Shown piece after piece: positions 4,766-62,129 of a DNA stretch of 64,000 nt (position 1 is the first letter of the stretch; each line of letters begins with the position of its first letter). The notes under the pieces are model-generated. The model did no database searches, had not been told where the DNA came from, and was given only the letters and a program-made list of their open reading frames with translations. This DNA comes from a virus, in the IMG/VR virus record IMGVR_UViG_3300021185_001264, positions 2,784 through 66,783 of that record; one strand, 5' to 3'. The position numbers and the translations under genes were made by a program.

Positions 4766-7252
4766 CTATGTTAAATCTAAAAGAATGGTCCAGAATTGTT
4801 CTAGATACTTAAGTTTTGCTATCGTACTATTCTCTTCCTGACCACTTCCATCATTGATAATGGCATCTCTACTTAATCCGTTATTACCTAATAAGTTAAT
4901 GCTAACTCCCGATCTAGGATTAAGGAAATAGTTATCGTATAAATCACTGATGATATTTGTGCCAACTCCAGCGTTCAAGGCATTATTACTCATGTCGAGC
5001 GTTCGTAGAATAGTATTATACTTTAACGCCTCTGGAGTATAGCCTACTATAGAGTTATTATTTAAGTACAAGATTTGAAGTCTAGTTGCTCCAGACATAT
5101 CAGGCAAATTACCAGAAATTTGATTATTATGTAAATCTAGTATGTATAGATAAGGAGTATTCAGTGCAGGTAAAGATCCTGCAAACCCATTATTGTATAG
5201 ATAAGCATAAGTTAACCTATTACTAGTCCAACTTGGAATAGTTCCGGTCATGGAATTACTATTAAGTCTCAAATAGTATAGATTGTTATTTCCTACTAAT
5301 AGAGGAAGATTTCCGTTTATTCCAGTGTTTGCTATATACAAGCCCCGTAAATTTGCGTTGCTTGAGAAATTGGGAAGAGGTCCTGCGATATTAGAGTTAC
5401 TATACGTATATAACCATTGCAAATTTCCCATTTCGGCAAATACTTCTCCAGTGCCTCCTCCCGCTATAGATGCTGTTGTTCCAAAGAAGTCGGTGCCCGT
5501 GTGTCTAGATCCTGCAAATAAAATAGTCGATAGACTATCAGCTCCTATGAAACTACTATCCCTCAGTTCTCCTGATGCGGAGGTCCACCTAAGATCAAGG
5601 TAAGATAGTGAAGATAATCCTTTGTTTGAGAAATCTGCGCCTATGTTAGACGCAACGGTAGAAGATCCGTACATGTGTATAGTATCGAGTGATGTACAGC
5701 CATTAAATTTACCATTCAAATTTCTGCTTCTATTAGAGTCAGGGTGAGAATGCGTTTGCCGGTATATTCTGATCACAGTATTACCAGATACATCGACCAC
5801 ATTATGAGCATTACCATCAGAGACAAATGAATCCAATAATGTACTTGCAATAGTAATATCTCCTCCTCCTTGTTTTTGCGTAATGCCGCACGAAGTAAAA
5901 CTAAGTGAAGTCAAATTAGGACTAGCGCAAACACCGTTATCTAATTGACTAAAAGGTTGATGATCTAAGCTATAGCTTTTTATTCCCTTTACCCCATTTG
6001 AATCAACAAATGTCTGAGGACTAATTACGGCTCCGCTAATCATTGTTCTTCGTGCATCTCTACTGTATAACGATCCTAGTGATATATGTTCCAAATCTTG
6101 ATAATCAGTTAAGACAATTGGAGTGCTATCCCTAAATGTTCCATTCATAGTCAAATGGGTAAGTGTAGTAGGAAGAGTATTAAGTTGAGTGTTAGCGGGT
6201 ATTTGATTACCGTTGACATCTTCTGCTCTAGACATATCGTTTGAAGATATATTTATTTTTAAAAGAGCAGGAGCTAGATTGTCTCCATTTCTAGTTGAGT
6301 TTCCAAATTTAGGCAATTCGTAAAAATCGTTATTGTTAATATCTATTCTTTTTATCGCAGGCAAACTTACATTTGTCCACTCTGATAAATTAACGAAAGG
6401 AATACGCAGTTCAAGAATGTTAGCAGGATTATAAAAGAATTCTAATGTTCTGGCTCTCGATGTGTTGTCATTAAAAGAGTATGTTCCTGGCGCAGTATCA
6501 TATACTCCTAAGGCTCTATCGCCGCTTTCATACACTTGTCCTCCAGCTTTATTTGTAATTCTGTATACGGGAGGAATATTGCCTGCACTATCTTGTATAG
6601 GAGTGACTGTATGACTAAATGTATTACTTCTGAAAAACGTATTGAATACTAAAGGAATTCCTTTCATAACTAAGAATTTTTTAGTTGAGAAACTACTAGT
6701 ATTGTCCTTAATATCTATAGATAGTTCATGTGTTGCGACCTCTGCCCTATACTTCTTTTCAATTGGCGCTTTCGTAGTACCTAAAGAAGAAAAAGTAATG
6801 TCCTGTCCTGTTACTTCAACTTCTCCGCCATATGTAATTGAACTTCCTATTGAGGACCAAGATGACACTCTAGATGTAGAGATATCGGCAACACTCATAT
6901 TATGCTTACCGTTCACTAGTGGGTTAGAATAATCTAAGTAATTGTATTTTATAGCGGCGGCATTGATCTGGTTGTTTATCTGTAGATTAAAGTTTAATGG
7001 CTGACCAATATCTTTTAAGCTAGTGAGTAATCCTCCTACGGTATTTGAGGACCTAGAAAGAGATGCTAATTCTTTTTTCTGATCTTCAACAAGTCCAGAA
7101 ATAGTGTGTAATTCGTCAGAGTTTATGCCTGCGGAAGATAGACCTGAAATCAGATCCAAATCTCTTTGGTCTAATCCTAAATTGTTGAGAGCTTCTGCTG
7201 AATTATCGACATCATTCAAAGCTAACTGTACGTTGAGACCTCTAAATGCCAT
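4766..7252 (-). CDS. Leucine-rich-repeat protein, probably virion-associated
   Basis: C-terminal tandem LxxLxLxxNxxxGxLP repeats (e.g. LYYLRLNSNSMTGTIP, LYILDLHNNQISGNLP). Confidence 0.75.
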   Translation of the reverse strand: MAFRGLNVQLALNDVDNSAEALNNLGLDQRDLDLISGLSSAGINSDELHTISGLVEDQKKELASLSRSSNTVGGLLTSLKDIGQPLNFNLQINNQINAAAIKYNYLDYSNPLVNGKHNMSVADISTSRVSSWSSIGSSITYGGEVEVTGQDITFSSLGTTKAPIEKKYRAEVATHELSIDIKDNTSSFSTKKFLVMKGIPLVFNTFFRSNTFSHTVTPIQDSAGNIPPVYRITNKAGGQVYESGDRALGVYDTAPGTYSFNDNTSRARTLEFFYNPANILELRIPFVNLSEWTNVSLPAIKRIDINNNDFYELPKFGNSTRNGDNLAPALLKINISSNDMSRAEDVNGNQIPANTQLNTLPTTLTHLTMNGTFRDSTPIVLTDYQDLEHISLGSLYSRDARRTMISGAVISPQTFVDSNGVKGIKSYSLDHQPFSQLDNGVCASPNLTSLSFTSCGITQKQGGGDITIASTLLDSFVSDGNAHNVVDVSGNTVIRIYRQTHSHPDSNRSRNLNGKFNGCTSLDTIHMYGSSTVASNIGADFSNKGLSSLSYLDLRWTSASGELRDSSFIGADSLSTILFAGSRHTGTDFFGTTASIAGGGTGEVFAEMGNLQWLYTYSNSNIAGPLPNFSSNANLRGLYIANTGINGNLPLLVGNNNLYYLRLNSNSMTGTIPSWTSNRLTYAYLYNNGFAGSLPALNTPYLYILDLHNNQISGNLPDMSGATRLQILYLNNNSIVGYTPEALKYNTILRTLDMSNNALNAGVGTNIISDLYDNYFLNPRSGVSINLLGNNGLSRDAIINDGSGQEENSTIAKLKYLEQFWTILLDLT

Positions 7253-10200
7253 TATTGTTCCTTTACCGTAAGCGTCATTTCTATATTGCCGACAGATAAT
7301 CCATCTACTGCCGATGCAGTAAGATACACTGCTCTATTATTTAGTAGTCCTCTAGCTATTCCCTTTCTGTCTCTATTGAAAATATTAGACAAGTCAAATT
7401 TTTCTGGTGATCCACCTTTAACGTATAAAGAATATATCACTGTACCTGGTCGCAAAGGATTTAAACATTGATCATCAAATCTCACGCTAGACAGCCTATT
7501 ATCACTTTGAAAGGCCGCTGGCGTTAGAGCGTTACTTGATGATGGGCCTCCTGATTGACTAGAATTGACTATTGTTAGTGTAGACGCATCTTTAATAAAC
7601 ACTGGAGTATGAGTGCGAACTGTTTCTGGAGTAAATTCTTCAACTATGATATTATTTACTTTCGCATTATCTTTCAAGGCAAATACGAGATATAAAGGCT
7701 GAGAATTAAATTTAACAGCTTTAGATTTGTTAAATGAGTCACCATTTAGGTCGCTGTCAAGTTGCCAATCGTCTTTGATTGTTATGATTTTAGTGTTAAC
7801 TGAGGCAACAGTTCTGTTTCCGCCATTAGTAGGATCTCCATCTACATAAGCAAAAGTGCCTTCTCCATCTACAGTGATAGGAACAGTGTGATAATATACT
7901 CCTATACCAACTCCGCCCACTCCAACTTCTGTGCTTTGAGGCACAACAGCTCCAGAACTATCAAGAGTGAAAAGTGAAGAGTCAGGACCGTTATTATTAT
8001 CAAAATTAATTCTCCATTTACCGCTAAATTGTCCTGAAGTTATAGCCGTTACGCTACTGACTGCATTGCTTAAAATTCTTACTTCGCCTATAAGAGTAGA
8101 TATGTATCCTGAATCAGGACCTTCTGGGCTTCCTAATCTGTAATCGACCATGAACATGTCCGATAATCCTGGATCCCATTCATACTTATCTGCTTTTACT
8201 GAATAGTCTGGTGCTGTTCCTTCTGAAGAATATTCCTGATGGAGTTCATCATATAAAGAGTATGGAGCTTTTACTCCACCGGCATCTTCAAACTTTAGAA
8301 CATTGGGATTGACGGTCGTATCAATTTCTGGTACTTTAGATGTGACTGACACTGCAAAATCTGCAAAGTGTTTACTTCCGTCTCCGCTCCTAGGATTTAA
8401 AAAATGTATCTTAAAGTTGTTGCTATATATCGGAACAGTAGATGCCGCAATAGCATGATAATTAGAAAGTCTCCCGGTAAAAGTAGGTCCAGTAGAAGTG
8501 TCTAATAAAGTACCATCAGCTTTAATTCCTTTTAATTCAAACGAAATTGGAGAAGAAAGTGTTTGACTACTAGTTCGCCTTCGTATAACTGTAGAATTTG
8601 TAAGATTACTATCAAAGTTGACATACGCATTATACACTCCATCTGCTATCAAATGCGCTTTATCATCCTTCAACGTTAAATTATCTCCTCCTAAAATATT
8701 TAACTGACTGCCGAGTGGAGCTATAGCCTGAAAAGTTAAGGTTCTAGAATTTGGATGAACTCCATTATGAAGAGAGGGAGAAAAGTTATAATGAACTCCA
8801 TCGGGAGAACCTCGTATTTCTTCGATATCAACTCTAGTATCTATACTACTAGATATAGACATTGTAGTTGGATAAGCCTTTTTAAAGTTAGGTATTCCTA
8901 CTCCATCTTGGTTAAAAATCTCTTGTTTAGGAAGAATTCCCAAAATTGGAGTCCGTTCATCGCCAGAGAACGATTTAGTGTCTACTGTCGTTGTCGCAAG
9001 TCTTATTGTTCCCTCATCTCCTCCATCAACATAATAACTACTACCGTACTTATACAAAACTACCGGCTTTTCCATAGTCTTATTTTCTTCAGTGGAAATC
9101 AGATATTTGAATTTAAAATCTGGATTATTAAGAATAGGCAACCCCAAACCATTCTCGATGATAAGTCGATGCATCAATACCCAACGGGCTTCACCGTTAT
9201 TAACAGGAACATAAGCGTAAAACTTTGCTCCAATAGCTCCATACCAAGAAAACTCAATTTTATACATGGTAACATCTTCGAATGAAAGTATGTATCCAGA
9301 ATCACCGCCGCCCAAAAGCTTATCGCCGTTAAACTTGGTTCTAGGTATAACAGTCTCCCACATAGCTTCACGAACTTCTACACCTTTAGTCTCAATAGGA
9401 GATGAACCTTGATCTGATACAGCAAGTCCTTGCTTAAGTAACAAATCGTCTGGTAATTTTATAGTGCTTCTGCGTACAATGTTGAATTTCGATCCTACTA
9501 ATTGAAACATATATTCATCTGTAGAGTTTGAACATCCCCACTCGATAGTATTTGTCGGTGATGTAGGATCAGTCTCTTGTCTTACGCCAAAAGTGAATCC
9601 GCTTGCTCTGCCAGGCTGATATCTAAAAGTTTTTTTACTTTCCAATATAGCAAATTTTGGCTGAATTGATGATCCACCAGGTCGAGATTCTTCTTGCAAG
9701 AATTCTTGTATTATCTTGTATAATGCCAGCTCGGTAAAGTCTGTTACCGCTGAACCAGTTAGGATAGGAAAAGTAGCCACGCTGGCAATAATCTTGTCGT
9801 ATAATGCAGTCCATCTTTCAACCTGATCAAATGAATCTTGTAAATCTGCTCCATACTCTACATCGTGAAAATTAGTATCATTATCAAAAAATCTTGTAGT
9901 CTCATTAAATGAAATGGGTATTACTGCCTCTGATGCGTTCACAATAGTTATGTTTCTATTGATAAGGTTTCTTTCAGCAAATTGTGTGGCGGCATCTAAA
10001 TCAAGTTCTAAGAAATATTCATACAGCCATTTACCCATAGCAATAAAGTTCATGTATGCTACCATAGTGCTACTAGCACTCGATAGCTTGTCTACTATCG
10101 TGCTACCTGGAAAGGCGTATTGAGATGGAAAAGAAGAAAGAGAGAGTGCTTGTTCTTCAGATTCTTCTTGAAATTTCGGATCGAATCTTCTACCATATAC

Positions 10201-10602
10201 AGGATTCTCTTTTCTATACCACTCTCCAGGATAACTACCAGTTGGGCCAAGATACACGCTCCAATTATCAGTGTCTAATCCATATGTGGATACGTCCGAG
10301 AAAAGACTTAACTGTTCCTCTGAGCGAGGAACACCTAAAAGAGAACTACTTACTTCTGATTCAGAAGAAAATTGCTCGGCAATTGGAATAGATAGAACAG
10401 GATTATTGTCATAGTTATTAGCGTAAACAGGTGTAGAATAATCCGATTTGGAAAACGATCCTACTACTGCCTCGTCTTCAGTGTAAATCGGATTACCTGC
10501 AACGTCTACAAGTTTGTTGCCCTCGATGTCAATAAGCTGTATGAACTGCTTAGTGACTGGAGCAGGTACTTTATCCAGTCCAAGTTTTATCTGCTTTGGC
10601 AT
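7252..10602 (-). CDS. Large virion-region protein, paralogue of the 1382-aa neighbour
   Basis: Shares blocks FRYQPGR.S..TFGV, VTM.KIEFSWYGA.GA.F.AYVPV.NGEARWV, KYG.SYY.DGGD.GT.RL and a C-terminal EQ with 10606..14754. Confidence 0.65.
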   Translation of the reverse strand: MPKQIKLGLDKVPAPVTKQFIQLIDIEGNKLVDVAGNPIYTEDEAVVGSFSKSDYSTPVYANNYDNNPVLSIPIAEQFSSESEVSSSLLGVPRSEEQLSLFSDVSTYGLDTDNWSVYLGPTGSYPGEWYRKENPVYGRRFDPKFQEESEEQALSLSSFPSQYAFPGSTIVDKLSSASSTMVAYMNFIAMGKWLYEYFLELDLDAATQFAERNLINRNITIVNASEAVIPISFNETTRFFDNDTNFHDVEYGADLQDSFDQVERWTALYDKIIASVATFPILTGSAVTDFTELALYKIIQEFLQEESRPGGSSIQPKFAILESKKTFRYQPGRASGFTFGVRQETDPTSPTNTIEWGCSNSTDEYMFQLVGSKFNIVRRSTIKLPDDLLLKQGLAVSDQGSSPIETKGVEVREAMWETVIPRTKFNGDKLLGGGDSGYILSFEDVTMYKIEFSWYGAIGAKFYAYVPVNNGEARWVLMHRLIIENGLGLPILNNPDFKFKYLISTEENKTMEKPVVLYKYGSSYYVDGGDEGTIRLATTTVDTKSFSGDERTPILGILPKQEIFNQDGVGIPNFKKAYPTTMSISSSIDTRVDIEEIRGSPDGVHYNFSPSLHNGVHPNSRTLTFQAIAPLGSQLNILGGDNLTLKDDKAHLIADGVYNAYVNFDSNLTNSTVIRRRTSSQTLSSPISFELKGIKADGTLLDTSTGPTFTGRLSNYHAIAASTVPIYSNNFKIHFLNPRSGDGSKHFADFAVSVTSKVPEIDTTVNPNVLKFEDAGGVKAPYSLYDELHQEYSSEGTAPDYSVKADKYEWDPGLSDMFMVDYRLGSPEGPDSGYISTLIGEVRILSNAVSSVTAITSGQFSGKWRINFDNNNGPDSSLFTLDSSGAVVPQSTEVGVGGVGIGVYYHTVPITVDGEGTFAYVDGDPTNGGNRTVASVNTKIITIKDDWQLDSDLNGDSFNKSKAVKFNSQPLYLVFALKDNAKVNNIIVEEFTPETVRTHTPVFIKDASTLTIVNSSQSGGPSSSNALTPAAFQSDNRLSSVRFDDQCLNPLRPGTVIYSLYVKGGSPEKFDLSNIFNRDRKGIARGLLNNRAVYLTASAVDGLSVGNIEMTLTVKEQ

Positions 10603-10605: not shown

Positions 10606-13600
10606 TTATTGTTCTTCCCACGTGCAACCTATGCTTACCTTGTCAGCGGTATGTCCTGCCGATGTATCAGAATCTACTGCAAAATAAAGACTATCCGCTT
10701 GATTTGTTAGCGGGAACGATAGATATTCTTTATTATAATCAAAGTATGGGCTTAGGTCAAGTTGCTCTGTTCCCTGTTGTAAGTATATAGTTGCTACGTT
10801 TACACCGCTATTAGGAACAGGCACTACTGTATTACTCGAAATTTTAATTGAACTTAAACCTTCTTTTTCTGAAGAAACTTTGGTCGCTACTGATTGAGCG
10901 GCAATTGCTCTTGCTGGATGCGTGCCAGTTGTAAAGTTTTGGGCAGAGCCTGATCCAGGATATTTTCCATCTGCCTCGAATCTAGCATCTGGCAAGAATG
11001 ATCCAGCTTTCAACTGTATTGTGCCATTATATGATTCGAGAAGTTCGAAGTAGTACTCATCAGATTCTTTATACAGTCTACCAAACACTGTGACATCATC
11101 TGATCCAACAATTGCTTGGAACCAACCAAAGAGACTTTCATTATTATCAAAATATGATCCAGCGCCAGTCGATTCAGTTACTCCGACTGTACTCAGAGGA
11201 TCGTTTAAAGCCGTGAGTGTATAAGGAGCATTTAAAGTAAACGAGCCAGAATACACAGTGTCAGTTTGGAAAATAGGAGTCTTTTTAAATCTCATACGAA
11301 TAGGATTATTTCCTAAATTCGATGTTGATAATTTAGTTGGATAAACCTGAACTCTATTTCGGACTGCATTCGAATCCTGCGTACTCAAAATTACTTTCTT
11401 AGTTTCAAGTTCATAAGTAGCATTTGCTCTATCCACAAGAAGTTGTACGCTAGTAGTACTTGAAGGAACACCGTCAAGATAAACTTTAGTTGTATCAGCC
11501 CAAATAACTTTAATATTCTGATCTGTTCTGTTACTACTTTTAAACTTAGCTCCCATAAAGAATCTAGGGTCAACTGCGGTCGAAGGATTGGTATAAGCTA
11601 CACCTCCTATAGTTTCTCCTGATAATGTAGTTGCATTAATATTAATAGCATTATTTGCAGAGTCATAGTTACTTGTGTTCTTAATCGTCCACTGTTTGCC
11701 GTAAGCGTCTTGAGTGTCTTCGTTGTTATGACTGTACAATCTAACTGTACCTCTGTCACCACCATCGATATAGTATGAAGCACCGTATTTTACGATTGAA
11801 TGTGAATCAGATCCATAGCCTCTATTGACGTAATTTATATCTTCTTGATCGCCTAGAGATTTTTGATCACCGCCACCATATGTGTTGTATGTAATGGGAA
11901 GTGTCGCATTACCTAGAGAGGCGTTCTTGTATTGATTGGAAGCACGTAAATGATGGACTCGTACCCACCTTGCTTCTCCGTTATCGACAGGAACGTATGC
12001 TAAGAACAATGCGCCAACAGCTCCATACCATGAGAATTCAATCTTAAGCATGGTAACTTTAGTAAAGTCAAAGTTGTATAGGCTTTCCGTAAACTTGGCC
12101 TCGCCTAATACTTTGTATATTTCTCCTGGGCGGGCAGTACCTGTCTCTCCAGTAGCAACATCACTATACACTCTTTGTTTAGCAGGAGGAGTTGTTAATT
12201 CAGTTCTTCCGTCTAAAGTGTCATGACTGTATCTTGATCTAGGCACACGATAATCGTATACACCCCAATACTCAGGCTTAACATTGAATCTTACCCAAGT
12301 AACAAAATGTGGATCAAAGTTTATGTAATCAATTTGTTCACATACTTCATTTAACTTAGCGCCATCAGATAAATCGTTTGCAGTGTTTATGTATCCAACA
12401 CGTTTACTTGTCGTAGCATTATCGCTCTTAAGATTGCCGTCAAGTGCGTACATGTAAGGAAATACCATTCCTTTTGGGAATACATCGTCATTTACATCAG
12501 TAATGCCCAAAGCTGTCCTATAACTAGTGGGATTGTATCCATGATATCCCTTTTCAATAGCAGGAATATATGAATTGGCGCCAGTTAAATCTTGTTTTAT
12601 CTTTTGACCCGAAGATGTCGAGTCAGGAAGAGTCGTACCGGTACTAGGGAAGATGAACGGAACAACTGTTTCTACTTTAAGGTTGTTAACACTCGTTGCG
12701 AGGAAGGTTTGAGCAGTACCGCCTTCATCTTCTAACGTAAATTCGTTGCCCTTTGGTCCAATAACACTTTTCACTTTATACACTTGACCTGCTACGAGTC
12801 CTGTTTTTCCGCCAGTATTTGCCACAGTAGTTTTAACTTTGACGTGTCCCTTAAACGGAACTACGCCTTTAGTCAGTTTAAGTTGATCGTTAGTATCAGA
12901 GACTGCCACAATTTCTTCAATTGGATTCAATAAATCTGGATCATATACAGCAGAGTGTGTTAAGATAATGCCGTCTCGCATCGCTACTAAGTTACCCGCA
13001 AACCCATTACTGCCGATTTCCATCTTCAGAGTATCTTCTCGGCTAAAATTACTAATAACTCTGCCTGCAAGAGCAGTAAGTTTAGCGTGTTCTGCGGTTG
13101 AAGAACTATAACCTAATCCACCAGAGTTGTTGTTACTTGCGTTTATAGTAGACCCGGCGATATTGGCCGTTCCGGCAAAGTCAGCAAGTATCAGAGTCCT
13201 CAAATGAGTGTGTCGTTCAATTTCTAAGGCCGCAGTCGCATTCTGTGAGTAAATTGACATTCCGTAACCAGGAGTATCACTACTGGGTCTTCCTCCTTTG
13301 AAGTACATAGACATGTTATATTTCGTTTCTGCATCACCACCGCCATCAATATCATTTCCATATCCACCTATGATATAACCTAAGTCTCTTTGACACTTGT
13401 ATTTTATTTCTTCTGGTGTAAATCCTGGAGCCGAAGACAGTGTTGCCGCTTGGCCATTGGCTTTGTAGTTAGTTACGTAATATGCCCAGTAATAAGACTT
13501 AGCCGCAAAGATCGTATCGATTTTGCTTCTTGTTCCATAATCATTATTTGATATAGTAGGAAGTGCTGGCTTGGTATTAGCTGATACGTTAAAGGCTGTT

Positions 13601-14754
13601 ATTACGATATCAGCTAGAGTAGTTATTTTAGCTGTAGCCGCTGAAGATATACCAGCAAACGCAAGCAACTTAGCTTTCAGTGCTGTATGGGTGATCTTCT
13701 CATAACGCTGTGGATTAGGTAAGATTGCGTTTGCATAGTTACTAAGGTTAAGTATAGTGTGGTTCTTACCGCCGTATTCCATATCTAGTAGATAAAAATC
13801 TATCCAGTAGTCTAGATCACGCTTACACTTCTCTTCCACTATCGCCTTGTTCGCCGCTGAGCCTTGCCCACTGCCGTAGATTGATACTGCTAGATCAGCA
13901 TAGTAATCCGCACTACTACCTGTGCCACTTATACCCTGATATAGTCCAGTGCCGGCGGCATAGTCCCCTACGACTTGAGTCAAAGCACTATTAATAATCG
14001 TAAATCTATTTCTGAGAATAAGTTCACGATCTTTGACTAGAAGCACACTAGGCTCAATACCTTCGCTTGCACCTTGACCTATAATACGAAAATCGTCAAA
14101 TTGTGTTGTGCCCAAGTTTTGATTACCGGGTGCTCCGCCTTTAAGTTTTTGTGTTGCGATTCCTGTTGGAGAATTTGGACATTTTGTCAACGACTGTGAG
14201 CGCCTAACTACAGCGAAGTTATCGCCTTCCGAGTTATTTCTAGTTTCCCAAAAGTATCCGTCAAAATTATCAAAGATTCCGAATTTGCGAACAGATGGAT
14301 TCTGTGAAAAGTCTGCAATACCTGTAGTACTTTTAACTCCAAACGTTGCGGCTGATACACGACCAGGCTGATATCTAAAGAAACGCTTAGATGTGAGAAC
14401 TGCTGTTTTGTTTCTAGGTGCTTCCACCAGTGCGCCAGCTTCTGTCGGTATGTGTTGAATACCGTGCCCAGTAATATGATACTGAGGCGAAGATGACCAC
14501 TCTGTAGGGTTAACATCATATGTGTTAACGTCTGCGAAGATGCCTAAAGCAACTTCGGCACGTGGAATACCTAAGAGAGAAAGCGCAACTTCCGACTGTA
14601 CCTTGTTTTGCTCCTCAACCGGAATAGCAGCCTGATCTGTAGCCATTACGACTGGGATCGATTTAGAAGCAGGCTGTGCACCAGGAGAAACAGGCGTGGT
14701 ACGTCCGACGTTGACTACGCTTGCGTTATTATTTACATTTGTTATACTTGACAT
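10606..14754 (-). CDS. Large virion-region protein with inserted phycobiliprotein-like (C-x-R-D) helical modules
   Basis: 1382 aa; same scaffold as the downstream paralogue plus a long insert containing KCKRDLDYW and KCQRDLGYI. Confidence 0.65.
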   Translation of the reverse strand: MSSITNVNNNASVVNVGRTTPVSPGAQPASKSIPVVMATDQAAIPVEEQNKVQSEVALSLLGIPRAEVALGIFADVNTYDVNPTEWSSSPQYHITGHGIQHIPTEAGALVEAPRNKTAVLTSKRFFRYQPGRVSAATFGVKSTTGIADFSQNPSVRKFGIFDNFDGYFWETRNNSEGDNFAVVRRSQSLTKCPNSPTGIATQKLKGGAPGNQNLGTTQFDDFRIIGQGASEGIEPSVLLVKDRELILRNRFTIINSALTQVVGDYAAGTGLYQGISGTGSSADYYADLAVSIYGSGQGSAANKAIVEEKCKRDLDYWIDFYLLDMEYGGKNHTILNLSNYANAILPNPQRYEKITHTALKAKLLAFAGISSAATAKITTLADIVITAFNVSANTKPALPTISNNDYGTRSKIDTIFAAKSYYWAYYVTNYKANGQAATLSSAPGFTPEEIKYKCQRDLGYIIGGYGNDIDGGGDAETKYNMSMYFKGGRPSSDTPGYGMSIYSQNATAALEIERHTHLRTLILADFAGTANIAGSTINASNNNSGGLGYSSSTAEHAKLTALAGRVISNFSREDTLKMEIGSNGFAGNLVAMRDGIILTHSAVYDPDLLNPIEEIVAVSDTNDQLKLTKGVVPFKGHVKVKTTVANTGGKTGLVAGQVYKVKSVIGPKGNEFTLEDEGGTAQTFLATSVNNLKVETVVPFIFPSTGTTLPDSTSSGQKIKQDLTGANSYIPAIEKGYHGYNPTSYRTALGITDVNDDVFPKGMVFPYMYALDGNLKSDNATTSKRVGYINTANDLSDGAKLNEVCEQIDYINFDPHFVTWVRFNVKPEYWGVYDYRVPRSRYSHDTLDGRTELTTPPAKQRVYSDVATGETGTARPGEIYKVLGEAKFTESLYNFDFTKVTMLKIEFSWYGAVGALFLAYVPVDNGEARWVRVHHLRASNQYKNASLGNATLPITYNTYGGGDQKSLGDQEDINYVNRGYGSDSHSIVKYGASYYIDGGDRGTVRLYSHNNEDTQDAYGKQWTIKNTSNYDSANNAININATTLSGETIGGVAYTNPSTAVDPRFFMGAKFKSSNRTDQNIKVIWADTTKVYLDGVPSSTTSVQLLVDRANATYELETKKVILSTQDSNAVRNRVQVYPTKLSTSNLGNNPIRMRFKKTPIFQTDTVYSGSFTLNAPYTLTALNDPLSTVGVTESTGAGSYFDNNESLFGWFQAIVGSDDVTVFGRLYKESDEYYFELLESYNGTIQLKAGSFLPDARFEADGKYPGSGSAQNFTTGTHPARAIAAQSVATKVSSEKEGLSSIKISSNTVVPVPNSGVNVATIYLQQGTEQLDLSPYFDYNKEYLSFPLTNQADSLYFAVDSDTSAGHTADKVSIGCTWEEQ

Positions 14755-20946: not shown

Positions 20947-21124
20947 TGGTTATCTCTTTGCATGTTTTTTGTAGTGTTAGTACTACTAATTCTAGATTAT
21001 TTAGTCGAGCTTCCAGAGACTTAATCGTTTTAGTCTGCTCAATTCTTGCCTTAGCTGATCTAAAGGCTGATAAATCCTTGCTGACAACTCCAGCTTCTCT
21101 TCTGATGTATACTTCGTCTATCAT
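20939..21124 (-). CDS. Small coiled-coil hypothetical protein
   Basis: 61 aa, overlapping the start/stop of both neighbours (translational coupling). Confidence 0.55.
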   Translation of the reverse strand: MIDEVYIRREAGVVSKDLSAFRSAKARIEQTKTIKSLEARLNNLELVVLTLQKTCKEITNE

Positions 21125-24100
21125 GTCAGTGCAATCGCTCTATAGTCGTAAATGTGTGCAAAAATGTTTTCTGCTGTTGAAAGAGGCAATGCTGAATTTA
21201 ATGGATCTTTTAAATCGAGAGTATTGATTTCACTAGTAGTCGCATGTCTAATCTCAAACTTTAATTGAAAACTGCTATAGTCCTTACTCGCATTGCTTAA
21301 CTCTGTAAGATCATATTGGAACTCTCTATAGTCTGAAGTGTTTGATTGATTAGAGTACATATCTTCGTTAGAGTTTACCAACTTAATCCAATCACTTTGA
21401 ACCTCAGCATCAGTGAGATACACAAGTCTAGCATACACATCTACAAATGTACCAGCCGGTCTGTATGCACTTAAGTATACCCTAAGTCCCCTAGCGTCTA
21501 TCTCTTCTTGCAGAATAACTTCTTTAGTTACCCAACTCGAAGTTGATGCACTAGAATCTGAAATTTTATATTTATAGACGTTTAGTATAGACAGATCAGG
21601 ATCAACAATAGGAGTTGCTGCCTGATATCCACTATTACTCATATTGACTCTAATCTTGAAGTCATCTGTAGGAGCACTATCGGTAACAACAATATTCGAT
21701 GTGCTATTAATAACACGTAACTTATTCGTATTGTATACATTACCGTTGTATGGTATTTTTTTATCTATTCCCTGATCATCGTATAGAACTAACTCTGTTG
21801 AAGTTCTAGCAGTATTACTCACTAGAATTTGAGGCTGAAAGTATGATACGGGCTCATTATCTACTGAAGCAATGGTTGTCACTGTACCTGTTCTATATCC
21901 AGTTAGTATTTCTCCCGCCGCAAATATATTACCTCTTTTAGCAGAACTCTTCCGCAAGAACACTCTATCGTTTCTTCTTTTGTTAAAGTATGATATTCTA
22001 CCAGCAACTGCAAGTGTCGCTGTAGTACCTGTATTGCTATTTGTAGAGTTGTATGCCGTGCGAATAGTAATCTCATTTCCTGAATTATTAACCGATTCAA
22101 CTTCAGATAAGAATACGTTATTACCACTCTCAAGTAATATATAATCGCCTATAGCAAATACGCTTGATCCTTGAATCGTAACAGTACGATTATTAACTCC
22201 ACAATCGTATGAAATATTCTTTTTAACATATGCTAGTTCATCGATTCTAAAGCCTCCAGTTGTGTTGTTAACTGTAAGAAATTCTACGTCATTAGGAGAT
22301 AAGTCAACCCAACCTGGACCTGCTTGATGTTGATATCTCTTCAGTGTAAACTTAATGTCTTCATCTTGATAAGATTTCCAAGCACTATCGTTTGTAGATG
22401 TAAACAGAACTCCATCACCCCAATCGTTAGTTATTGATGCGCCTGTTGTTAAATCATTGCCGCCAACCTTAGATGTAAATACTAAGAAATCTGGCGAGTT
22501 AGCATCCGGAATAATAACAAAACAATATTCTTTGTTAGTATTAAGTTTCACTGGATTTTTAAATTCGAATGAAGTAACTACTGAGCCGTTATCAGACGTA
22601 TTAATTTGACTAGGGCGTAAATGCTTTGTTCCGAAAGGAAGAGTAGCCGAAGATGGATACCCATTCACAACTTCCCTCAATTCAAGTGTTACGCCTACGC
22701 TTGTAGATTTGGATTTAAAATAAACATCTACACTACTAATCATAGACATATTTGCACCTAAAGCTTGTGCGGGTCTAACTATGAAAGTTTGTGCAAGAGG
22801 ATCTCCTCCTTCTTGCCATCGTCTAGTAAACGATCTAGTTGTAACATTTCTTTCTATATCGAAAGTAGGTGTACGAGTAGTTTGAGTTAGATCAGATTTA
22901 TTTACTTCAAAGTTATACGCCCTATAGATTGCTTTAGTGTATGAAGTCTTACCACTATCGATGCTTGAATACTGATCAACGTCAACTATTTCGATTGATC
23001 GTTCACCGACAAAGAATGTAGCTTCAGGTATCACAAATAATGCCGCAAGAGTTCCTTCTGCGTCTGTACGAACAGCTCCTCCAAGAATACCTAAACCTCC
23101 ACCTTGTACGTCCACTTCACTAACATTGTACTCTAATTTAGACCCAATGACAGTAGGATTAACTTCACCAGGATAAACGTGATCATTAATTGCAGTGCCA
23201 TCTAAGAAGAAGTAATGTCTTGTGTTTGGTCTCAGACCAGTTACGAGTATTTTAACTTCTCTTGATTGAATATAAGGAGACATAGTAACATCCGTCACAA
23301 AGTTTCCTACGGCGCTAGTAGTAGTTTGGCTATCACCCGCAACTAAGCTGGTAGAAGTTGTCGTAGTTGTCGTAGTCTGAGCGAATGAATTTCCATTCTG
23401 CACAATAGCACCAGTAATAGAATTTACTTGCTCTCTAGTTAAAGGAAGAACTTCTTGAAGATTGTCAACTAAATCTAAAAGAGGAGTTGCAATATCGATC
23501 TCTAAATTGATAGCTGGATTCTGAATAACATCATAACCAGCATCAAACGGAGGATCGATTGCCGCTTTGCCTCTGAAGTTATAGAAGTTAGATACACAGT
23601 TTCTAAAGTTTGTCGCAAAAGGCTGATTAATTACAGTAATACGACTTCCCTCATCGCCCAATGTAACTACGTCTTGGTATACATTTGCTCCCTGTGAAGC
23701 ATTTACCTTAAGATCAATTGGGAACTGTGTGACTGCAGGAGTTGCAACAGTTCTAGACTTATCGACAGCGGCGCCAAATTCAGGATCTGCTACATCGCCT
23801 ACAGCAAGACTCTTAAAGCTGTCTACAAGAATACCATTCTTAAATCTATTAAGTCCGTCTCCATCTGGAATAAACAGACTATTCGTTTCGGCTTCTAATA
23901 AGCTGAGTGTAACTAAATCAGTAAGTCTGTCGATCTTCTGCTCTATGCCACCAATATCTTTCATCGTGTAGTTTTTGTTAGTTACATCTACAACACGGAT
24001 TGGATTGTTACCTGTAATCTTAGTGACATTACCAGGAACATAGATATTACTTAATGCGTATAGTCCAGGTATGTCCGGAATACTTGGATTCTCAGATTCG

Positions 24101-49118: not shown

Positions 49119-50078
49119 TTATAATCCGTTTGGTATTAGTACGTAATGTATAGTCAGAACTATGGCAACTGAAGCACCTAGTCCAATCATCATCTTCTGA
49201 AAGTCTCTTGCCACTAACGGGAATACAGATTTCATTTTCATCTTACCTGTAAAAGTTGCGATAGCGAGTTCACGACCAGCAAGCATACCTACGAAGACCC
49301 ACGTAGTTGACATAGGAATGTCGTTGAGTTCTTTGAAGAAATACAGGCATAACCAATAGAACAGGTCGATTAAAGTCGCACTACGGACATATCTTGTGTT
49401 ATGCTTCTCTAGTACAATCTGTTGTATCTTGCCACCACGCTCTCTGAACATGAAGAAAAGACCCACAACAAACACACATGATATTAGCATCATTAGATCA
49501 ACTGGTACGACACGTGGTAGAAACACAGCAATATTAGCCATGTCATGCGACAGCCAAGTCCACCAGAGTCCACCTGTTGCGAACCACTGCGCTATTCGCC
49601 AATAGTTTTTGTTCTTCTCTTGCACTGGTTCTGCTTCATCAAGTGTACGTGATACAACGTACCACACACCGTATGCGAACAGAGCGGCAATACCATAACC
49701 CATGATGCTCTTCATCAACATCTTTTCTAGCACAAAAGTACTCGCAAAAGCACTCAACACTAAAAAGGATGTTGATACTGGTACACCAAGTCTGGTAAGT
49801 AGTACGAGTATTCCTGGTGCGGCGGCATGATACCACTGAACTTCTTGCCAGGGAATCTTATTCAATCGACCATAGCTGATGTCTCCACCGTTTACAGTCC
49901 AACCATACCATAGTGTCGCTAGTAATACAGCACTTGCGGCTGCCCACATAGTCTTGTAATTGAATCGCTCATTGTTTGATGCCATCCAAGTGCCGAGCGT
50001 CTGCACTGAATCATTTGCAATCACCGCATAAGCGGCAAAAAGGAACCCAATAAGGCTCCAGGTAGTTAGTAGTTCCAT
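49119..50078 (-). CDS. Multi-pass membrane protein, PiT (phosphate/anion transporter)-like
   Basis: Duplicated motifs IANDSVQT / SHDMANIA and PVSTS / PMSTT resemble the PiT GANDVAN and PVSTT signatures; AAGGAG RBS. Confidence 0.65.
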   Translation of the reverse strand: MELLTTWSLIGFLFAAYAVIANDSVQTLGTWMASNNERFNYKTMWAAASAVLLATLWYGWTVNGGDISYGRLNKIPWQEVQWYHAAAPGILVLLTRLGVPVSTSFLVLSAFASTFVLEKMLMKSIMGYGIAALFAYGVWYVVSRTLDEAEPVQEKNKNYWRIAQWFATGGLWWTWLSHDMANIAVFLPRVVPVDLMMLISCVFVVGLFFMFRERGGKIQQIVLEKHNTRYVRSATLIDLFYWLCLYFFKELNDIPMSTTWVFVGMLAGRELAIATFTGKMKMKSVFPLVARDFQKMMIGLGASVAIVLTIHYVLIPNGL

Positions 50079-50148: not shown

Positions 50149-50835
50149 TTATTTAATTTCTGGAAATAACGATTCTGATATGAATGCATCGACATCATCC
50201 GAATCAAGACCCAAACTTTTCATCACATTTGGGGTATGTGGATTCATCTTCTGATGCTCTGCATAATAGTTTTGCGATGCTTTGCCTAAATCACTGTCAG
50301 CGTATCCGTTATACTTACCAATGTTTTTCTTGTAGTAACACAGACCTTCTTTGGCAACCTTACATATCTGATCGATCTCTGCTGGTTCTTTGACCATACC
50401 AGCGGCAATCATGCTATCACTGAAGATTGCTTTTGCCCATGGCGGCAGTTCTCGTTCTCTTTTCCATTGTAATGGTTTGGCAATTGTTGCGAAGTGTTCC
50501 ATCATAGGATGTTCTGAATTAGACGTAGAAGAGAAATCATAAAATGCACCTGTCATCTTATTGGCACCTGCAATCACATCAAACCCGTATATTGGTCCGT
50601 CATTATGTGTATGAGGAAAGACACATACATGCATCATCCACAGCTTCTTCTCTTCACGCATATCGACCACATCAATGTGTGCCCTACGATAATTGTTATT
50701 TGACCATACTCTGTTTACCCAACCAGGCTGATTGAATCTATCCATACCAGGCTCACGTATTTCAGTAGCATCTGATGATAGCTGTTCGATTAGATTGTTT
50801 TGAAGATCAATCAAACTATTCCATATAATAGACAT
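50149..50835 (-). CDS. pcyX: Ferredoxin-dependent bilin reductase, PcyX-like
   Basis: W.NRVW....YRRAHIDVVD....LWMMHVC.FP......PI.GFDVIAG..K.TGAF.DFS, RELPPWA..IFS, Q..Y...QK.NPHT..VM.SLG; adjacent to a heme oxygenase. Confidence 0.85.
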   Translation of the reverse strand: MSIIWNSLIDLQNNLIEQLSSDATEIREPGMDRFNQPGWVNRVWSNNNYRRAHIDVVDMREEKKLWMMHVCVFPHTHNDGPIYGFDVIAGANKMTGAFYDFSSTSNSEHPMMEHFATIAKPLQWKRERELPPWAKAIFSDSMIAAGMVKEPAEIDQICKVAKEGLCYYKKNIGKYNGYADSDLGKASQNYYAEHQKMNPHTPNVMKSLGLDSDDVDAFISESLFPEIK

Positions 50836-50981
50836 TACAGCACCGTTGCTCCGACTACTGTCGTAACTATTATTAAGACGTATAAACCATACATCATTAT
50901 ACTTAATTTTTCAAGTCTTTTCTGTCTCTCTCCAAAAGCAACCATCAATCTTTCGAATGATTCATCCAATTCGCTCTTCAT
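50835..50981 (-). CDS. 48-aa membrane peptide between hemO and pcyX
   Basis: MKSELDESFERL...YGLYVLIIVTTVVGATVL; GAGGAG upstream of the ATG at 50981; stop overlaps the pcyX start. Confidence 0.55.
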   Translation of the reverse strand: MKSELDESFERLMVAFGERQKRLEKLSIMMYGLYVLIIVTTVVGATVL

Positions 50982-51519
50982 GCAATAACTCCTCAAATAG
51001 TCTAATCGCAAATGCAAAGCATTTATTTGCTTCATCTGCCATATTATCATTCAACAACAGTCGAACATTCTGCTTCATCTCTTCTTTGTTTTCAAACTGA
51101 TACATGGTACCACTACCAGGAACACGTTTTGCAATGATAGCACCACCGTACATATCTCCAAAGTGTCTTACATATAAGTGCGAGATGATTCCGTCTACGT
51201 CTTCGTTCATTAAAAGGTTTTCAATGTGTCCGACATATTCTTGGGTTGACTTGCATATGAGTTCGCTATAGGTAAATCCGTAGATTTCCTCAAGTTCATG
51301 CATGTCATCTATGATCTTTTTTGCCCTAAAAATTGACCTGAACTCTTCTGGAAATGCGAGTTCACGCAACGCTGATTCGAGAACAACGTAGTTCTGGGAC
51401 TGATTGATTAAGTATCTGTAATATAGAAAGGGATCAATATTACCACTGAGTAATATCTTGGCAAAATCTTTACGTTCTGCTGATCTATGGTTTTCTGCCG
51501 TTAGCTGTTTTAAATTCAA
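50962..51519 (-). CDS. hemO: Heme oxygenase (biliverdin-forming)
   Basis: LKQLTAENHRSAE (proximal His) and HLYVRHFGDMYGG motifs; TTG start with GGAG RBS. Confidence 0.9.
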   Translation of the reverse strand: MNLKQLTAENHRSAERKDFAKILLSGNIDPFLYYRYLINQSQNYVVLESALRELAFPEEFRSIFRAKKIIDDMHELEEIYGFTYSELICKSTQEYVGHIENLLMNEDVDGIISHLYVRHFGDMYGGAIIAKRVPGSGTMYQFENKEEMKQNVRLLLNDNMADEANKCFAFAIRLFEELLHEERIG

Positions 51520-51576: not shown

Positions 51577-52275
51577 TTATCTAGTCTTTTTAGCCTTCTC
51601 AGATTTAATCCATCTCTTGGCTACAGCATTATCTGGTTCTGCATTCACAAACTTGGTGATCTCTCTATAGGCACGGGTAGTTTCTTTTTGATAGTCTTTG
51701 CCTTCAGAGTTATCTACAACAGTAAACTTTTGCTTTCCGAACATAGTCTGAAAAGAACCAATATTCTTTTGAACTGTAGTCCAGTACTTTTCTACTTCAT
51801 CAGCAGGCAGTGTTCTTGCTCTCGCTTTGTTACGTGCTTGTGCTGTGGCTAAGTCAGTGTTAACGAAAATCATTGCAACATCGTAACCTAGCTTTTTGAG
51901 TTCTTTTGCTTGGTTTGTCAGCTTTGCTGTGTCTTTACCTGTACCATCGATACATAGACCTAAACGACCTTTTATGTACATCGCTTGCTTAGTCGCTGTC
52001 AGCTTCTTGGCTTTGCCTCGTAACTCTTGACCTTTAACGGAGAAGATGTTATCCGGATCCATTTCCATACCAGCTTTCTTCATAGCTGATTCAAATGCAT
52101 CGTCTGAGTTCACAACCTTAAATCCAAGTGCTGGAAGTCCAGTTTTGCCTACAATGAATGATTTGCCAGAGCCAGGTCCACCGGCTAAGAATACTGCTTT
52201 GAAGATTGCAGGATCATTAACGCCTTCTTCGATTTGTTTTAGTTCTTCTTTAAGATAGTTTTCAAACGATAACAC
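51577..52275 (-). CDS. P-loop kinase (zeta-toxin/AAA_33-like)
   Basis: AVFLAGGPGSGKS Walker A, NSDD, IDGTG, RN..R.R; TATAAATA late promoter at 52309-52316. Confidence 0.8.
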   Translation of the reverse strand: MLSFENYLKEELKQIEEGVNDPAIFKAVFLAGGPGSGKSFIVGKTGLPALGFKVVNSDDAFESAMKKAGMEMDPDNIFSVKGQELRGKAKKLTATKQAMYIKGRLGLCIDGTGKDTAKLTNQAKELKKLGYDVAMIFVNTDLATAQARNKARARTLPADEVEKYWTTVQKNIGSFQTMFGKQKFTVVDNSEGKDYQKETTRAYREITKFVNAEPDNAVAKRWIKSEKAKKTR

Positions 52276-58221: not shown

Positions 58222-58303
58222 ATTACTTTCCCTTAAATGTCCACCTGGACTTATTTGTTATGTTAAATTATTCTCCTCTTTTTTCCATATCAAAACAAAA
58301 ATG

Positions 58304-62056: not shown

Positions 62057-62082
62057 AATATAGTCTCCAGTCATTCGGTTTA

Positions 62083-62129
62083 TCTCAATCTATACAAGTA
62101 GTATAGCAGGTCTAGCCACAATGTCAACC
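62083..62129 (-). promoter_or_regulatory. Phage early promoter, copy 1 of a 47-nt repeat
   Basis: GGTTGACATTGTGG...TATACT...TACTTGTATA.ATTGAGA; 39/47 identical to copy 2 (hand count). Confidence 0.75.

What the first reader, a model, noticed from the sequence alone, without database searches (positions are those of the whole stretch)
13200..14040. Phycobiliprotein-like bilin-attachment motifs in a virion-region protein of a phage that makes its own bilin
Seen: KCKRDLDYWIDFYLLDMEYGG (Cys codon 13825-13827) and KCQRDLGYIIGGYGNDIDGGG (Cys codon 13393-13395), in a helical Ala/Leu-rich insert preceded by LILRNRFTIINSALTQV. Established: the conserved chromophore Cys84/82 of phycobiliproteins sits in C-x-R-D-[IL]-[GD]-Y (alpha-phycocyanin KCARDIGYY, allophycocyanin CIRDLDYY), with Arg/Asp contacting the bilin and Gly about 18-19 residues later. 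Both copies here have GG at +18/+19, and the upstream N-x3-I-x3-A helix also fits. The same genome encodes heme oxygenase plus a PcyX-like reductase (50149-51519), while the host looks non-cyanobacterial. Inference: the phage may synthesise a bilin and attach it to its own globin-fold virion domains, giving pigmented, photoprotected or light-responsive particles. This would supply a missing acceptor for phage bilins. No bilin lyase is visible in this window.
Basis: partly seen in the sequence, partly recalled or inferred. Interest (0 to 1): 0.92.

Follow-up and report, generated by a model that had tools for sequence, protein, structure and literature searches.

The report
Phycobiliprotein-like globin modules in phage virion protein
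A structural protein of an uncultured T4-like phage carries two inserted domains that look like the pigment-carrying antenna proteins of cyanobacteria and keep their pigment-attachment residues, so the virus particle may carry a bile pigment made by the phage's own enzymes; this is untested at the bench.

Summary
Both C-x-R-D-L-[GD]-Y motifs sit at the stated codons in one 1382-aa virion protein (10606-14754, minus strand), against 0.0011 expected by chance.

- **Family:** the module is one unit of a large unnamed family, tandemly repeated up to 36 times in giant phage fibre proteins. Cys, Arg and Asp are 95-100% conserved over 1042 units. Some units pass Pfam's Phycobilisome threshold; the two here do not.
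- **Distribution:** among 50,697 phage records, a pure-module query hit 66, all cyanophages. All 3 complete uncultured genomes selected by module alone carry heme oxygenase plus bilin reductase, as does this contig, and none has psbA.
- **Counter-examples:** pelagiphage Mosig and P-SSM2 have the enzymes but no modules, and several partial module-bearing genomes lack the cassette.

Bilin binding is therefore plausible (about 0.55) but not shown. Modules are present in 3 of 3 cyanophages that need light to adsorb and absent in 2 of 2 that do not, which is anecdotal.

This scan noted the same domain family earlier on four other genomes. My searches found no paper describing it.

The parts
10606..14754 (-). 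Gene for the 1382-aa virion structural protein (P0001) that carries both modules
   Evidence: ORF and translation. phrog_1645 'virion structural protein', E 9.3e-27. The closest isolate proteins are annotated virion structural proteins of cyanophages S-TIM5, S-TIM66 and S-CBS4.
14155..14754 (-). N-terminal half of the conserved scaffold (aa 1-200)
   Evidence: 58% identical to S-TIM5 gp120 over aa 11-201 and 32% identical to S-CBS4 gp044 over aa 4-188. The phrog_1645 match covers aa 31-188.
13549..14088 (-). Globin module 1 (aa 223-402), with Cys310, Arg312 and Asp313
13825..13827 (-). Cys310 codon (TGT) of the first CxRD motif
   Evidence: At least 90% conserved in the ortholog alignment.
13009..13590 (-). 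Globin module 2 (aa 389-582), with Cys454, Arg456 and Asp457
13393..13395 (-). Cys454 codon (TGT) of the second CxRD motif
   Evidence: At least 90% conserved in the ortholog alignment; Asp468 (+14) is invariant.
12298..13008 (-). Remainder of the lineage-specific insert (aa 583-819); fold not examined
   Evidence: It has no counterpart in the S-TIM5 or S-CBS4 proteins apart from a weak 31-aa stretch. It was not modelled here.
10606..12297 (-). C-terminal half of the conserved scaffold (aa 820-1382, plus stop)
   Evidence: 34% identical to S-TIM5 gp120 over aa 820-1382. The highly conserved FSWYGAVGALFLAYVPV block appears in the ortholog alignment.
7252..10602 (-). Adjacent paralog (1116 aa) of the same scaffold family, without modules
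   Evidence: phrog_1645 E 1.4e-33. 26% identical in alignment A3. The module HMM does not hit it.
50962..51519 (-). Heme oxygenase gene
   Evidence: PF01126, E 9.6e-16, 58.6 bits, cut-off 23. Also found by the six-frame search.
50149..50835 (-). Ferredoxin-dependent bilin reductase gene (PcyA/PcyX-like)
   Evidence: PF05996, 48.9 bits, cut-off 31. phrog_7278. 50.7% identical to the reductase of Pelagibacter phage Mosig.

Best explanation
The 1382-aa protein is a baseplate- or fibre-region virion protein of the phrog_1645 scaffold family. This phage lineage has inserted two tandem globin-fold modules into it. The modules are distant relatives of phycobiliproteins and bilin-binding globins (BBAGs).

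Shown here (in silico):
- The fold.
- Homology to a huge family of 'CxRD' modules in phage fibre proteins.
- Near-invariance of the Cys-x-Arg-Asp triad.
- Presence of HO and FDBR on the same contig.

Inferred:
- During infection, HO and the reductase turn host heme into a reduced bilin.
- Each module binds one bilin in the pocket lined by the CxRD helix. Arg and Asp hold the pyrroles and propionates, and the Cys forms a thioether.
- Attachment is probably autocatalytic, as in BBAGs and ApcE, because no lyase is found.
- The assembled particle then carries a few pigmented domains near the baseplate.

What the pigment does is open. It could sense light, protect against light, or have another role.
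For: 1. **Motif and conservation.** Both motifs are at the stated codons and are far above chance. Both are conserved in orthologs at 43-60% identity. The two-module ORF is present in 8 of 9 related contigs of at least 17 kb.
2. **Fold.**
   - The AF2 model of aa 225-600 has pLDDT 83.9 and pTM 0.83.
   - Foldseek's top rows are almost all phycobiliproteins for both models.
3. **Sequence bridge.**
   - phmmer with the insert finds 113 proteins, many of 2000-6400 aa with up to 22 matched stretches.
   - My module HMM was built without P0001. It gives 1174 hits in 119 of 122 proteins, and hits P0001 twice (E 4.6e-13 and 2.7e-9).
   - Pfam PF00502 hits 4 of 9 giants tested, 3 of them above the cut-off, best 50.1 bits. 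The Cys falls at profile positions 67-78.
   - A single module in G080 scores 30.6 bits against a cut-off of 22.2.
   - 9 of 37 single modules hit PF00502; every other family is hit by only 1 module.
   - The module profile against PDB sequences gives 41 hits, of which 39 are phycobiliproteins. The best is E 3.1e-4, and the Cys aligns with the phycocyanin-alpha chromophore Cys.
4. **Functional residues.** Over 1042 units, Cys is 99% conserved, Arg 95%, Asp 100%, Asp(+14) 99% and Tyr(+30) 98%. Both modules here keep all five.
5. **Bilin supply.**
   - HO and FDBR are on this contig.
   - Of the module-selected IMG/VR records, all 3 that are at least 90% complete (G001, G006, G084) have the HO+FDBR cassette and no psbA.
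   - Of 50 FDBR-selected contigs, 7 have modules, including the only complete one, which has 44 module matches.
   - A 13-module query hits 66 of 50,697 phage records, all of them cyanophages, whose hosts make bilins.
6. **Precedent.** BBAGs carry CXRD and bind bilins without lyases (passages of PMC10151467).
Against: - No experiment exists, and no pocket could be inspected.
- The two modules here do not match PF00502 even at E 10.
- Foldseek E-values are weak (0.04-0.9).
- Module 2 ties with heme-type sensor globins.
- The alignments behind the models are shallow (23 and 37 rows).
- Pelagibacter phage Mosig has HO and FDBR but no module. A sensitive six-frame scan gave a best E of 0.24 and no C.RD motif.
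- P-SSM2 has FDBR and HO but no module.
- Among module-selected records at 60-89% completeness, only 1 of 4 has the cassette (G083 yes; G011, G025 and G082 no). At 40-59% completeness, 0 of 2 have it. By my arithmetic from the completeness estimates, it is unlikely that all of these merely miss it.
- The complete genomes G001, G006 and G084 have similar sizes and may form one clade, and no phylogenetic correction was made.
- Cyanomyoviruses are one family, so '66 of 66 cyanophages' may reflect descent.
- Some units lack the Cys (9 of 1042; 3 of 37).
- I know of no report of coloured cyanophage particles (recalled, not searched).
Confidence: 0.55

Rival explanations
1. The modules are pigment-free structural or spacer domains. 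An ancient phycobiliprotein-like globin was recruited as a rigid helical building block for fibres and baseplate decorations. The C-x-R-D helix is then kept for folding or inter-module packing, not for a ligand.
For: Arrays of up to 36 units in one ORF look like fibre building blocks. The modules lie in genes annotated as tail fibre, short tail fibre or gp7. Some units have lost the Cys. Mosig and P-SSM2 make bilins without modules. Several partial module-bearing genomes show no cassette.
Against: A single unpaired Cys is conserved at 99%, with Arg at +2 and Asp at +3 at 95-100%, across units that are otherwise about 15-30% identical. That is hard to explain by packing alone, and it is exactly the ligand triad of phycobiliproteins and BBAGs. 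All complete non-psbA genomes with modules carry HO and FDBR.
Confidence: 0.27
2. The modules bind something other than a bilin. Candidates are another tetrapyrrole or cofactor, or a host surface structure, making them a receptor-binding or sensor domain. The resemblance to the bilin site would then be inherited but repurposed.
Against: No His is among the positions conserved at 30% or more, so proximal-His heme binding is unlikely. The co-occurrence with HO and FDBR, and the restriction to cyanophages, both point to bilins.
Confidence: 0.12
3. The two motifs are a chance resemblance in a helical low-complexity insert.
For: The modules here fail Pfam PF00502.
Against: Expected 0.0011 occurrences, observed 2. 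The motifs are conserved in orthologs. Thousands of homologous units exist. The predicted fold is that of a globin.
Confidence: 0.01

Closest known systems
Light-harvesting phycobiliproteins and the ApcE bilin-binding domain (Pfam PF00502)
   Different: - These are domains inside virion proteins, in tandem arrays, not free 160-170-aa subunits.
- The structural alignments start at chain residues 18-50, so the N-terminal hairpin used for alpha-beta pairing is not matched.
- The family has its own invariant Asp(+14), Asn(+20) and Tyr(+30).
- The two modules here fall below Pfam's threshold.
- Pigment binding is untested.
BBAGs, the bilin biosynthesis-associated globins of heterotrophic bacteria (Rockwell, Martin and Lagarias 2023, PMC10151467; passages read)
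   Same: Phycobiliprotein paralogs outside photosynthesis. Some carry CXRD. They occur in genomes with HO and an FDBR, and they bind bilins without lyases. That is the mechanism proposed here, given that no CpeT or CpeS homolog was found.
   Different: BBAGs are stand-alone cellular proteins encoded beside pre-PcyA clusters. Here the globin is fused into a phage structural protein, about 35 kb from the HO-FDBR cassette. Phylogenetic placement relative to BBAGs was not tested, because no BBAG sequences were available to me.
Giant tail-fibre, short-tail-fibre and gp7 proteins of T4-like cyanophages (S-PM2 p091 and the 3780-aa 'short tail fiber protein'; P-HM1/P-HM2 gp7), and giant ORFs of 360-400-kb uncultured phages
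   Same: They carry the same CxRD module family: 9 modules in S-PM2, 4 each in P-HM1 and P-HM2, and 44 matches in G080.
   Different: Those proteins carry long arrays within fibre-type giants. This protein has only two modules, inserted into a different scaffold (phrog_1645) whose cyanophage orthologs (S-TIM5 gp120, S-CBS4 gp044) have no modules.
Photoglobins / photocobilins and sensor globins (RsbR, globin-coupled sensors)
   Different: They rank lower than phycobiliproteins for module 1. According to PMC10151467, photoglobins have CXQD rather than CXRD.

Membership tests
Phycobiliproteins (Pfam PF00502 Phycobilisome) | Sequence match to PF00502 at or above the gathering score (22.2 bits) | tested here: not met
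   The whole protein, the insert and each module give no PF00502 hit even at E 10 or E 1. Sister modules elsewhere do pass: P0022 at 50.1 bits, P0066 at 44.8, P0041 at 34.0, and a single module in G080 at 30.6.
Phycobiliproteins (Pfam PF00502 Phycobilisome) | Phycobiliprotein-type globin fold | tested here: met
Phycobiliproteins (Pfam PF00502 Phycobilisome) | Chromophore Cys followed by Arg and Asp on the equivalent helix | tested here: met
   The module-family profile aligns its C-x-R-D with the K-C-A-R-D of phycocyanin alpha chains. Both modules here keep Cys, Arg and Asp.
Phycobiliproteins (Pfam PF00502 Phycobilisome) | Covalently bound bilin | not testable with these tools
   This needs expression with HO and FDBR plus spectroscopy, or mass spectrometry of virions.
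Phycobiliproteins (Pfam PF00502 Phycobilisome) | N-terminal helical hairpin and alpha-beta / ring assembly | tested here: inconclusive
   The structural alignments begin at chain residues 18-50. Oligomeric state was not modelled.
BBAG (bilin biosynthesis-associated globins) | Globin with the CXRD motif in a genome that encodes HO and an FDBR | tested here: met
   Motifs, HO and FDBR on the contig. The family definition comes from passages of PMC10151467.
BBAG (bilin biosynthesis-associated globins) | Stand-alone globin gene clustered with the FDBR/HO genes | tested here: not met
   Here the globins are domains inside a 1382-aa virion protein whose gene lies about 35 kb from the cassette.
BBAG (bilin biosynthesis-associated globins) | Lyase-independent bilin binding; phylogenetic placement within the BBAG clades | not tested
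   No BBAG sequences were on hand, and binding needs a bench test. The absence of CpeT and CpeS homologs is compatible with this feature but is not a test of it.
Phage CxRD-module family (unnamed; giant fibre proteins) | Significant match to a profile of the roughly 110-165-aa unit, with invariant Cys, Arg, Asp, Asp(+14) and Tyr(+30) | tested here: met
   The HMM, built without P0001, hits it at E 4.6e-13 and 2.7e-9. phmmer with the insert reaches giants at E down to 3.5e-36. All five residues are present in both modules.
phrog_1645 virion structural protein scaffold | Match to the PHROG profile and to virion proteins of isolates | tested here: met
   E 9.3e-27. S-TIM5 gp120 aligns at aa 11-201 (58% identity) and aa 820-1382 (34% identity). 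No virion proteomics was consulted.

The most novel reading that the evidence does not exclude
CxRD globin modules are bilin-carrying photoreceptor domains displayed on phage baseplates and fibres. Through them the particle itself senses light and gates adsorption.

This would explain three things:
- The unexplained light-dependent adsorption of cyanomyoviruses, which does not depend on host photosynthesis.
- Why phages of non-photosynthetic hosts carry heme oxygenase and PcyX-type reductases.
- Why cyanophages carry CpeT-type lyases.

Supporting hints:
- Modules are present in S-PM2, P-HM1 and P-HM2, which need light to adsorb. They are absent in P-SSM2 and P-SSP7, which adsorb in the dark. 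That is 5 of 5, with P-HM1 and P-HM2 near-identical.
- A CpeT homolog is present in exactly the same 3 of these 5 genomes.
- In S-PM2, CpeT lies about 1.4 kb upstream of a module-bearing fibre gene.
Probability: 0.2. Interest if true: 0.97.

Novelty: new variant of a known kind. Interest (0 to 1): 0.88.

Why it matters
**Open question 1: the role of phage bilin genes.** Heme oxygenase and PcyX-type reductases in phages of non-photosynthetic hosts have no known acceptor. The 2024 Nature Communications paper leaves this open and mentions host phytochromes or BBAGs only as possibilities (passages). A phage-encoded protein with a phycobiliprotein-type attachment site is a concrete candidate that can be tested in E. 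coli.

**Open question 2: light-dependent adsorption.** Adsorption of some cyanophages needs light, independently of host photosynthesis. [quoted passage not shown] The same modules occur in the fibre and baseplate giants of exactly the light-dependent isolates I could check.

**Wider consequences.**
- If pigment binding is confirmed, virus particles would join the organisms that use bilin chromophores.
- The evolutionary reservoir of phycobiliprotein relatives would extend to an estimated 3100 or so viral stretches.
- If the modules prove pigment-free, they still form a large, undescribed domain family of phage fibres derived from the antenna-protein fold.

Tried and rejected
- **Direct family and structure look-ups of P0001.** Pfam gave nothing. 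PDB sequences gave nothing. The full-length ortholog profile against PDB gave only 8 weak phycocyanin hits on module 1, and nothing for the scaffold.
- **ESM Atlas.** A search with the two modules gave no usable hit.
- **Near-identical DNA in isolates.** None was found.
- **Chance explanation.** Rejected.
- **Other module-bearing genes in the window.** There are none.
- **'Every HO+FDBR phage has modules'.** Rejected by Mosig.
- **'Every bilin-making cyanophage has modules'.** Rejected by P-SSM2.
- **Non-cyanophage hits to the whole giant P0023.** In one search these were Methylophilales 4, Pelagibacter 1 and Marine 11. They disappeared with a pure-module query, so I attribute them to the non-repeat ends of P0023.
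- **Control set from baseplate gp6 relatives.** It was too fragmentary for a 2x2 table. It showed only that the two-module ORF is stable in this lineage.
- **Jia et al. 2010.** The primary paper on S-PM2 light-dependent adsorption is not held. Its content is quoted only through PMC6628666.
- **E/F-type (HEAT-repeat) lyases.** Not searched.
- **Supplements of PMC10151467** (BBAG alignment and tree). Not read.


Full report
**1. Observation**

The region lies in a single ORF, 10606-14754 on the minus strand, encoding 1382 aa (P0001). KCKRDLDYW... has Cys310 at codon 13825-13827, and KCQRDLGYI... has Cys454 at codon 13393-13395. Gly-Gly follows at +18/+19 in both.

In all six-frame open pieces of the window (34,071 aa), C.RD occurs only at these two places. 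The 7-residue pattern is expected 0.0011 times from composition. Across 16 aligned rows (P0001, 14 orthologs at 43-60% identity, and the paralog), K309, C310, R312, D313, D324, C454, R456 and D457 are at least 90% conserved, and D468 is invariant.

**2. The carrier protein and the genome**

- P0001 matches phrog_1645, 'virion structural protein' (E 9.3e-27). Pfam and PDB sequences give nothing.
- The gene next door (7252-10602) is a paralog without modules.
- The nearest isolate proteins are virion structural proteins of cyanophages S-TIM5/S-TIM66 and S-CBS4. They align only with aa 11-201 and aa 820-1382. So aa 200-820 is a lineage-specific insert in a scaffold that can be as short as 516 aa.
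- The window is the baseplate and replication region of a T4-like myovirus. It encodes gp5, gp6, gp25, gp53, gp48-like, gp32 and gp59 homologs. It also encodes heme oxygenase (50962-51519) and a ferredoxin-dependent bilin reductase (50149-50835), both above Pfam cut-offs.
- The record is an IMG/VR contig of 66,783 bp, estimated to be 39% complete.
- By baseplate gp6, the nearest isolates are Sinorhizobium phages (38.8%), then Stenotrophomonas, Rhizobium and Caulobacter phages, ahead of cyanophages at 31%. The contig has no psbA. A non-cyanobacterial host is therefore likely but not shown.

**3. The motifs belong to a large repeat family**

- phmmer with aa 225-600 against 1.84 billion representative proteins found 113 proteins. 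Many are 2000-6400 aa long, with up to 22 matched stretches.
- In these proteins, C.RD recurs with periods of about 108-115 or 135-165 aa, up to 31 times.
- An HMM of the unit, built from 150 units with none from P0001, gives 1174 hits in 119 of 122 proteins. It hits P0001 twice: aa 223-402 (E 4.6e-13) and aa 389-582 (E 2.7e-9).
- Over 1042 near-full units, conservation is Cys 99%, Arg(+2) 95%, Asp(+3) 100%, Asp(+14) 99%, Tyr(+30) 98%, Asn(+20) 87% and Thr(+46) 82%. The rest of each unit is only about 15-30% identical. Both modules of P0001 keep Cys, Arg, Asp, Asp(+14) and Tyr(+30).
- A caveat: the seed units were picked by the C.RD spacing, which favours these columns somewhat.
- The giants are phage proteins. 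Relatives of one of them lie on 31 IMG/VR contigs, some of 370-380 kb. One ORF holds 36 consecutive units. A degenerate pattern from the motif is estimated to occur in about 3100 viral stretches.

**4. Relation to phycobiliproteins: sequence**

- Pfam's Phycobilisome model (PF00502, cut-off 22.2 bits) hits 4 of 9 giants tested, 3 of them above the cut-off (50.1, 44.8 and 34.0 bits). The Cys falls at profile positions 67-78 each time.
- In a six-frame search, a single module of a 4122-aa ORF scores 30.6 bits.
- Of 37 single modules, 9 hit PF00502 at E up to 1. All 17 other families listed are hit by one module each.
- A profile of the 37 modules, searched against all PDB sequences, returns 41 chains at E up to 10, of which 39 are phycobiliproteins. 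The best is R-phycocyanin alpha at E 3.1e-4. The alignment runs from the helix before the loop through C-x-R-D to the Gly-Gly, and places the module Cys on the chromophore Cys.
- The two modules of this window do not reach PF00502 by themselves. Their link is transitive, through the family.

**5. Relation to phycobiliproteins: fold**

- AlphaFold2 on aa 225-600, with 23 aligned sequences, gives an all-helical two-domain model (pLDDT 83.9, pTM 0.83).
- Foldseek against the PDB gives no E below 0.04. Even so, almost every top row is a phycobiliprotein, ApcE or the allophycocyanin-derived smURFP, with target TM 0.5-0.67.
- An exhaustive aligner run over 48,161 representative chains puts eight phycobiliprotein or ApcE chains first:

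**6. Is the distribution linked to bilin supply?**

*Forward test (records selected by modules).*
- Of 31 module-bearing records, 2 have FDBR and HO. These are the only two that are complete, G001 and G006.
- In a second module-selected set of 23 records of at least 50 kb, 3 have both genes: G084 (100% complete), G083 (77%) and G092 (21%).
- So 3 of 3 records at least 90% complete have the cassette, 1 of 4 at 60-89% completeness, and 0 of 2 at 40-59%.
- None of the 4 complete module-bearing genomes has psbA, or a CpeT or CpeS homolog.

*Reverse test (records selected by the reductase).*
- There are 321 viral stretches that encode relatives of this reductase.
- Of 50 such contigs of at least 22 kb, 7 have modules. 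They include the only complete one (G080, 399,796 bp, 44 module matches) and 3 of the 5 that are at least 50% complete.

*Isolates.*
- A pure 13-module query hits 66 of 50,697 phage records, all of them Synechococcus or Prochlorococcus phages. The hits lie in genes annotated as tail fibre, short tail fibre or gp7.
- The scaffold orthologs without modules (S-TIM5, S-CBS4) come from genomes without modules or FDBR.
- Within this phage's own lineage, 8 of 9 contigs of at least 17 kb carry the two-module ORF.

*Against the link.*
- Pelagibacter phage Mosig, the only isolate with a close relative of this reductase (50.7% identity, with HO next to it), has no module. A sensitive six-frame scan gave a best E of 0.24 and no C.RD motif.
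- P-SSM2 has FDBR and HO but no module.
- The partial genomes without the cassette are unlikely all to be sampling misses (my arithmetic from the completeness estimates).
- No correction for shared descent was made. The three complete genomes may be one clade, and cyanomyoviruses are one family.

**7. Mechanism**

The best-supported reading is that each module is a bilin-binding globin. In phycobiliproteins and in BBAGs, the CXRD motif supplies the thioether Cys and two hydrogen-bonding residues. BBAGs attach bilins without lyases (passages of PMC10151467). A lone Cys with Arg and Asp, conserved at 95-100% across more than a thousand otherwise divergent units, fits a ligand site better than a packing motif.

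In this phage, HO and the reductase would provide the bilin in a host that may make none. In cyanophages, the host or phage PebS/PcyA would provide it. I put this reading at about 0.55. The rivals are a pigment-free structural module (about 0.27) and another ligand or a receptor-binding role (about 0.12).

**8. A bolder lead**

Passages of PMC6628666 state three things. P-HM1, P-HM2 and S-PM2 adsorb only in the light. P-SSM2 and P-SSP7 adsorb in the dark. [quoted passage not shown]

| Phage | Modules | Source |
|---|---|---|
| S-PM2 | 9 | |
| P-HM2 | 4 | |
| P-HM1 | 4 | |
| P-SSM2 | 0 | |
| P-SSP7 | 0 | |

- A CpeT homolog is present in the same three genomes and absent in the other two.
- In S-PM2, CpeT lies about 1.4 kb upstream of the 3780-aa module-bearing 'short tail fiber protein'.
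- This is five genomes, two of them near-identical, so it is a lead and not evidence of function.

**9. Novelty**

- A search for 'phycobiliprotein-like' plus phage found 0 papers.
- A search for cyanophage plus 'tail fiber' plus globin found 1 paper, which is unrelated.
- The BBAG and PcyX literature I saw (listings; passages) does not mention phage globins.
- The 2024 paper leaves the role of phage HO/PcyA/PcyX open and names BBAGs or phytochromes only as possibilities.
- This scan's own earlier notes describe the same domain family in giant fibres of four other genomes. They agree with what I found independently on this window, but they are not independent evidence.
- New here: the module sits in a different scaffold (phrog_1645), as a two-copy insert. 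Also new are the two-way co-occurrence counts with their counter-examples, the restriction to cyanophages among isolates, and the match with light-dependent adsorption and CpeT.

Noticed in passing
window 55196-59571 (minus strand): A phage-borne curli-type secretion set: CsgG (58304-59092, PF03783, E 3.5e-54), CsgF (59092-59571), two proteins with curlin repeats (55196-56488 and 57532-58221), and a FecR-domain protein (56451-57557). Several have PHROG families of unknown function.
   Followed up: no
window 52962-55013 (minus strand): A 683-aa CHASE2 sensor fused to an adenylate/guanylate cyclase domain (phrog_35576, E 3.3e-182). It lies two genes from the HO-FDBR cassette.
   Followed up: no
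window 51577-52275 (minus strand): A zeta-toxin-like / AAA_33 P-loop kinase lies directly beside heme oxygenase. The 319-aa ORF on the other side of the reductase (49119-50078) has no family match.
   Followed up: no
window 60860-63713 (minus strand): A CobS-like AAA ATPase (phrog_249 'porphyrin biosynthesis', E 2.9e-111) lies next to a phrog_459 protein. This is a second tetrapyrrole-related pair on the contig.
   Followed up: no
window 4766-7252 and 21121-26403 (minus strand): An 828-aa protein with C-terminal leucine-rich repeats, and a 1760-aa DUF4815 / phrog_358 protein, lie among the fibre and baseplate genes.
   Followed up: no
L212 (S-PM2 NC_006820.1, 160500-178000): CpeT (163952-164479) lies about 1.4 kb upstream of the 3780-aa module-bearing 'short tail fiber protein' (165928-177267). 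The record also annotates 16 tRNA genes inside that open frame, which looks like stale coordinates.
   Followed up: partly
alignment A2; loci L022:9961-10497, L033:19649-20209, L033:18932-19423: Three of 37 aligned modules have lost the Cys but keep Arg-Asp and Asp(+14). This resembles biliproteins that bind the pigment non-covalently.
   Followed up: no
G080 (IMG/VR record behind L112), 104-123 kb and 361-364 kb: A complete 399,796-bp phage genome has 44 module matches spread over ORFs of 6682, 4122 and 2381 aa. It also carries the reductase.
   Followed up: partly
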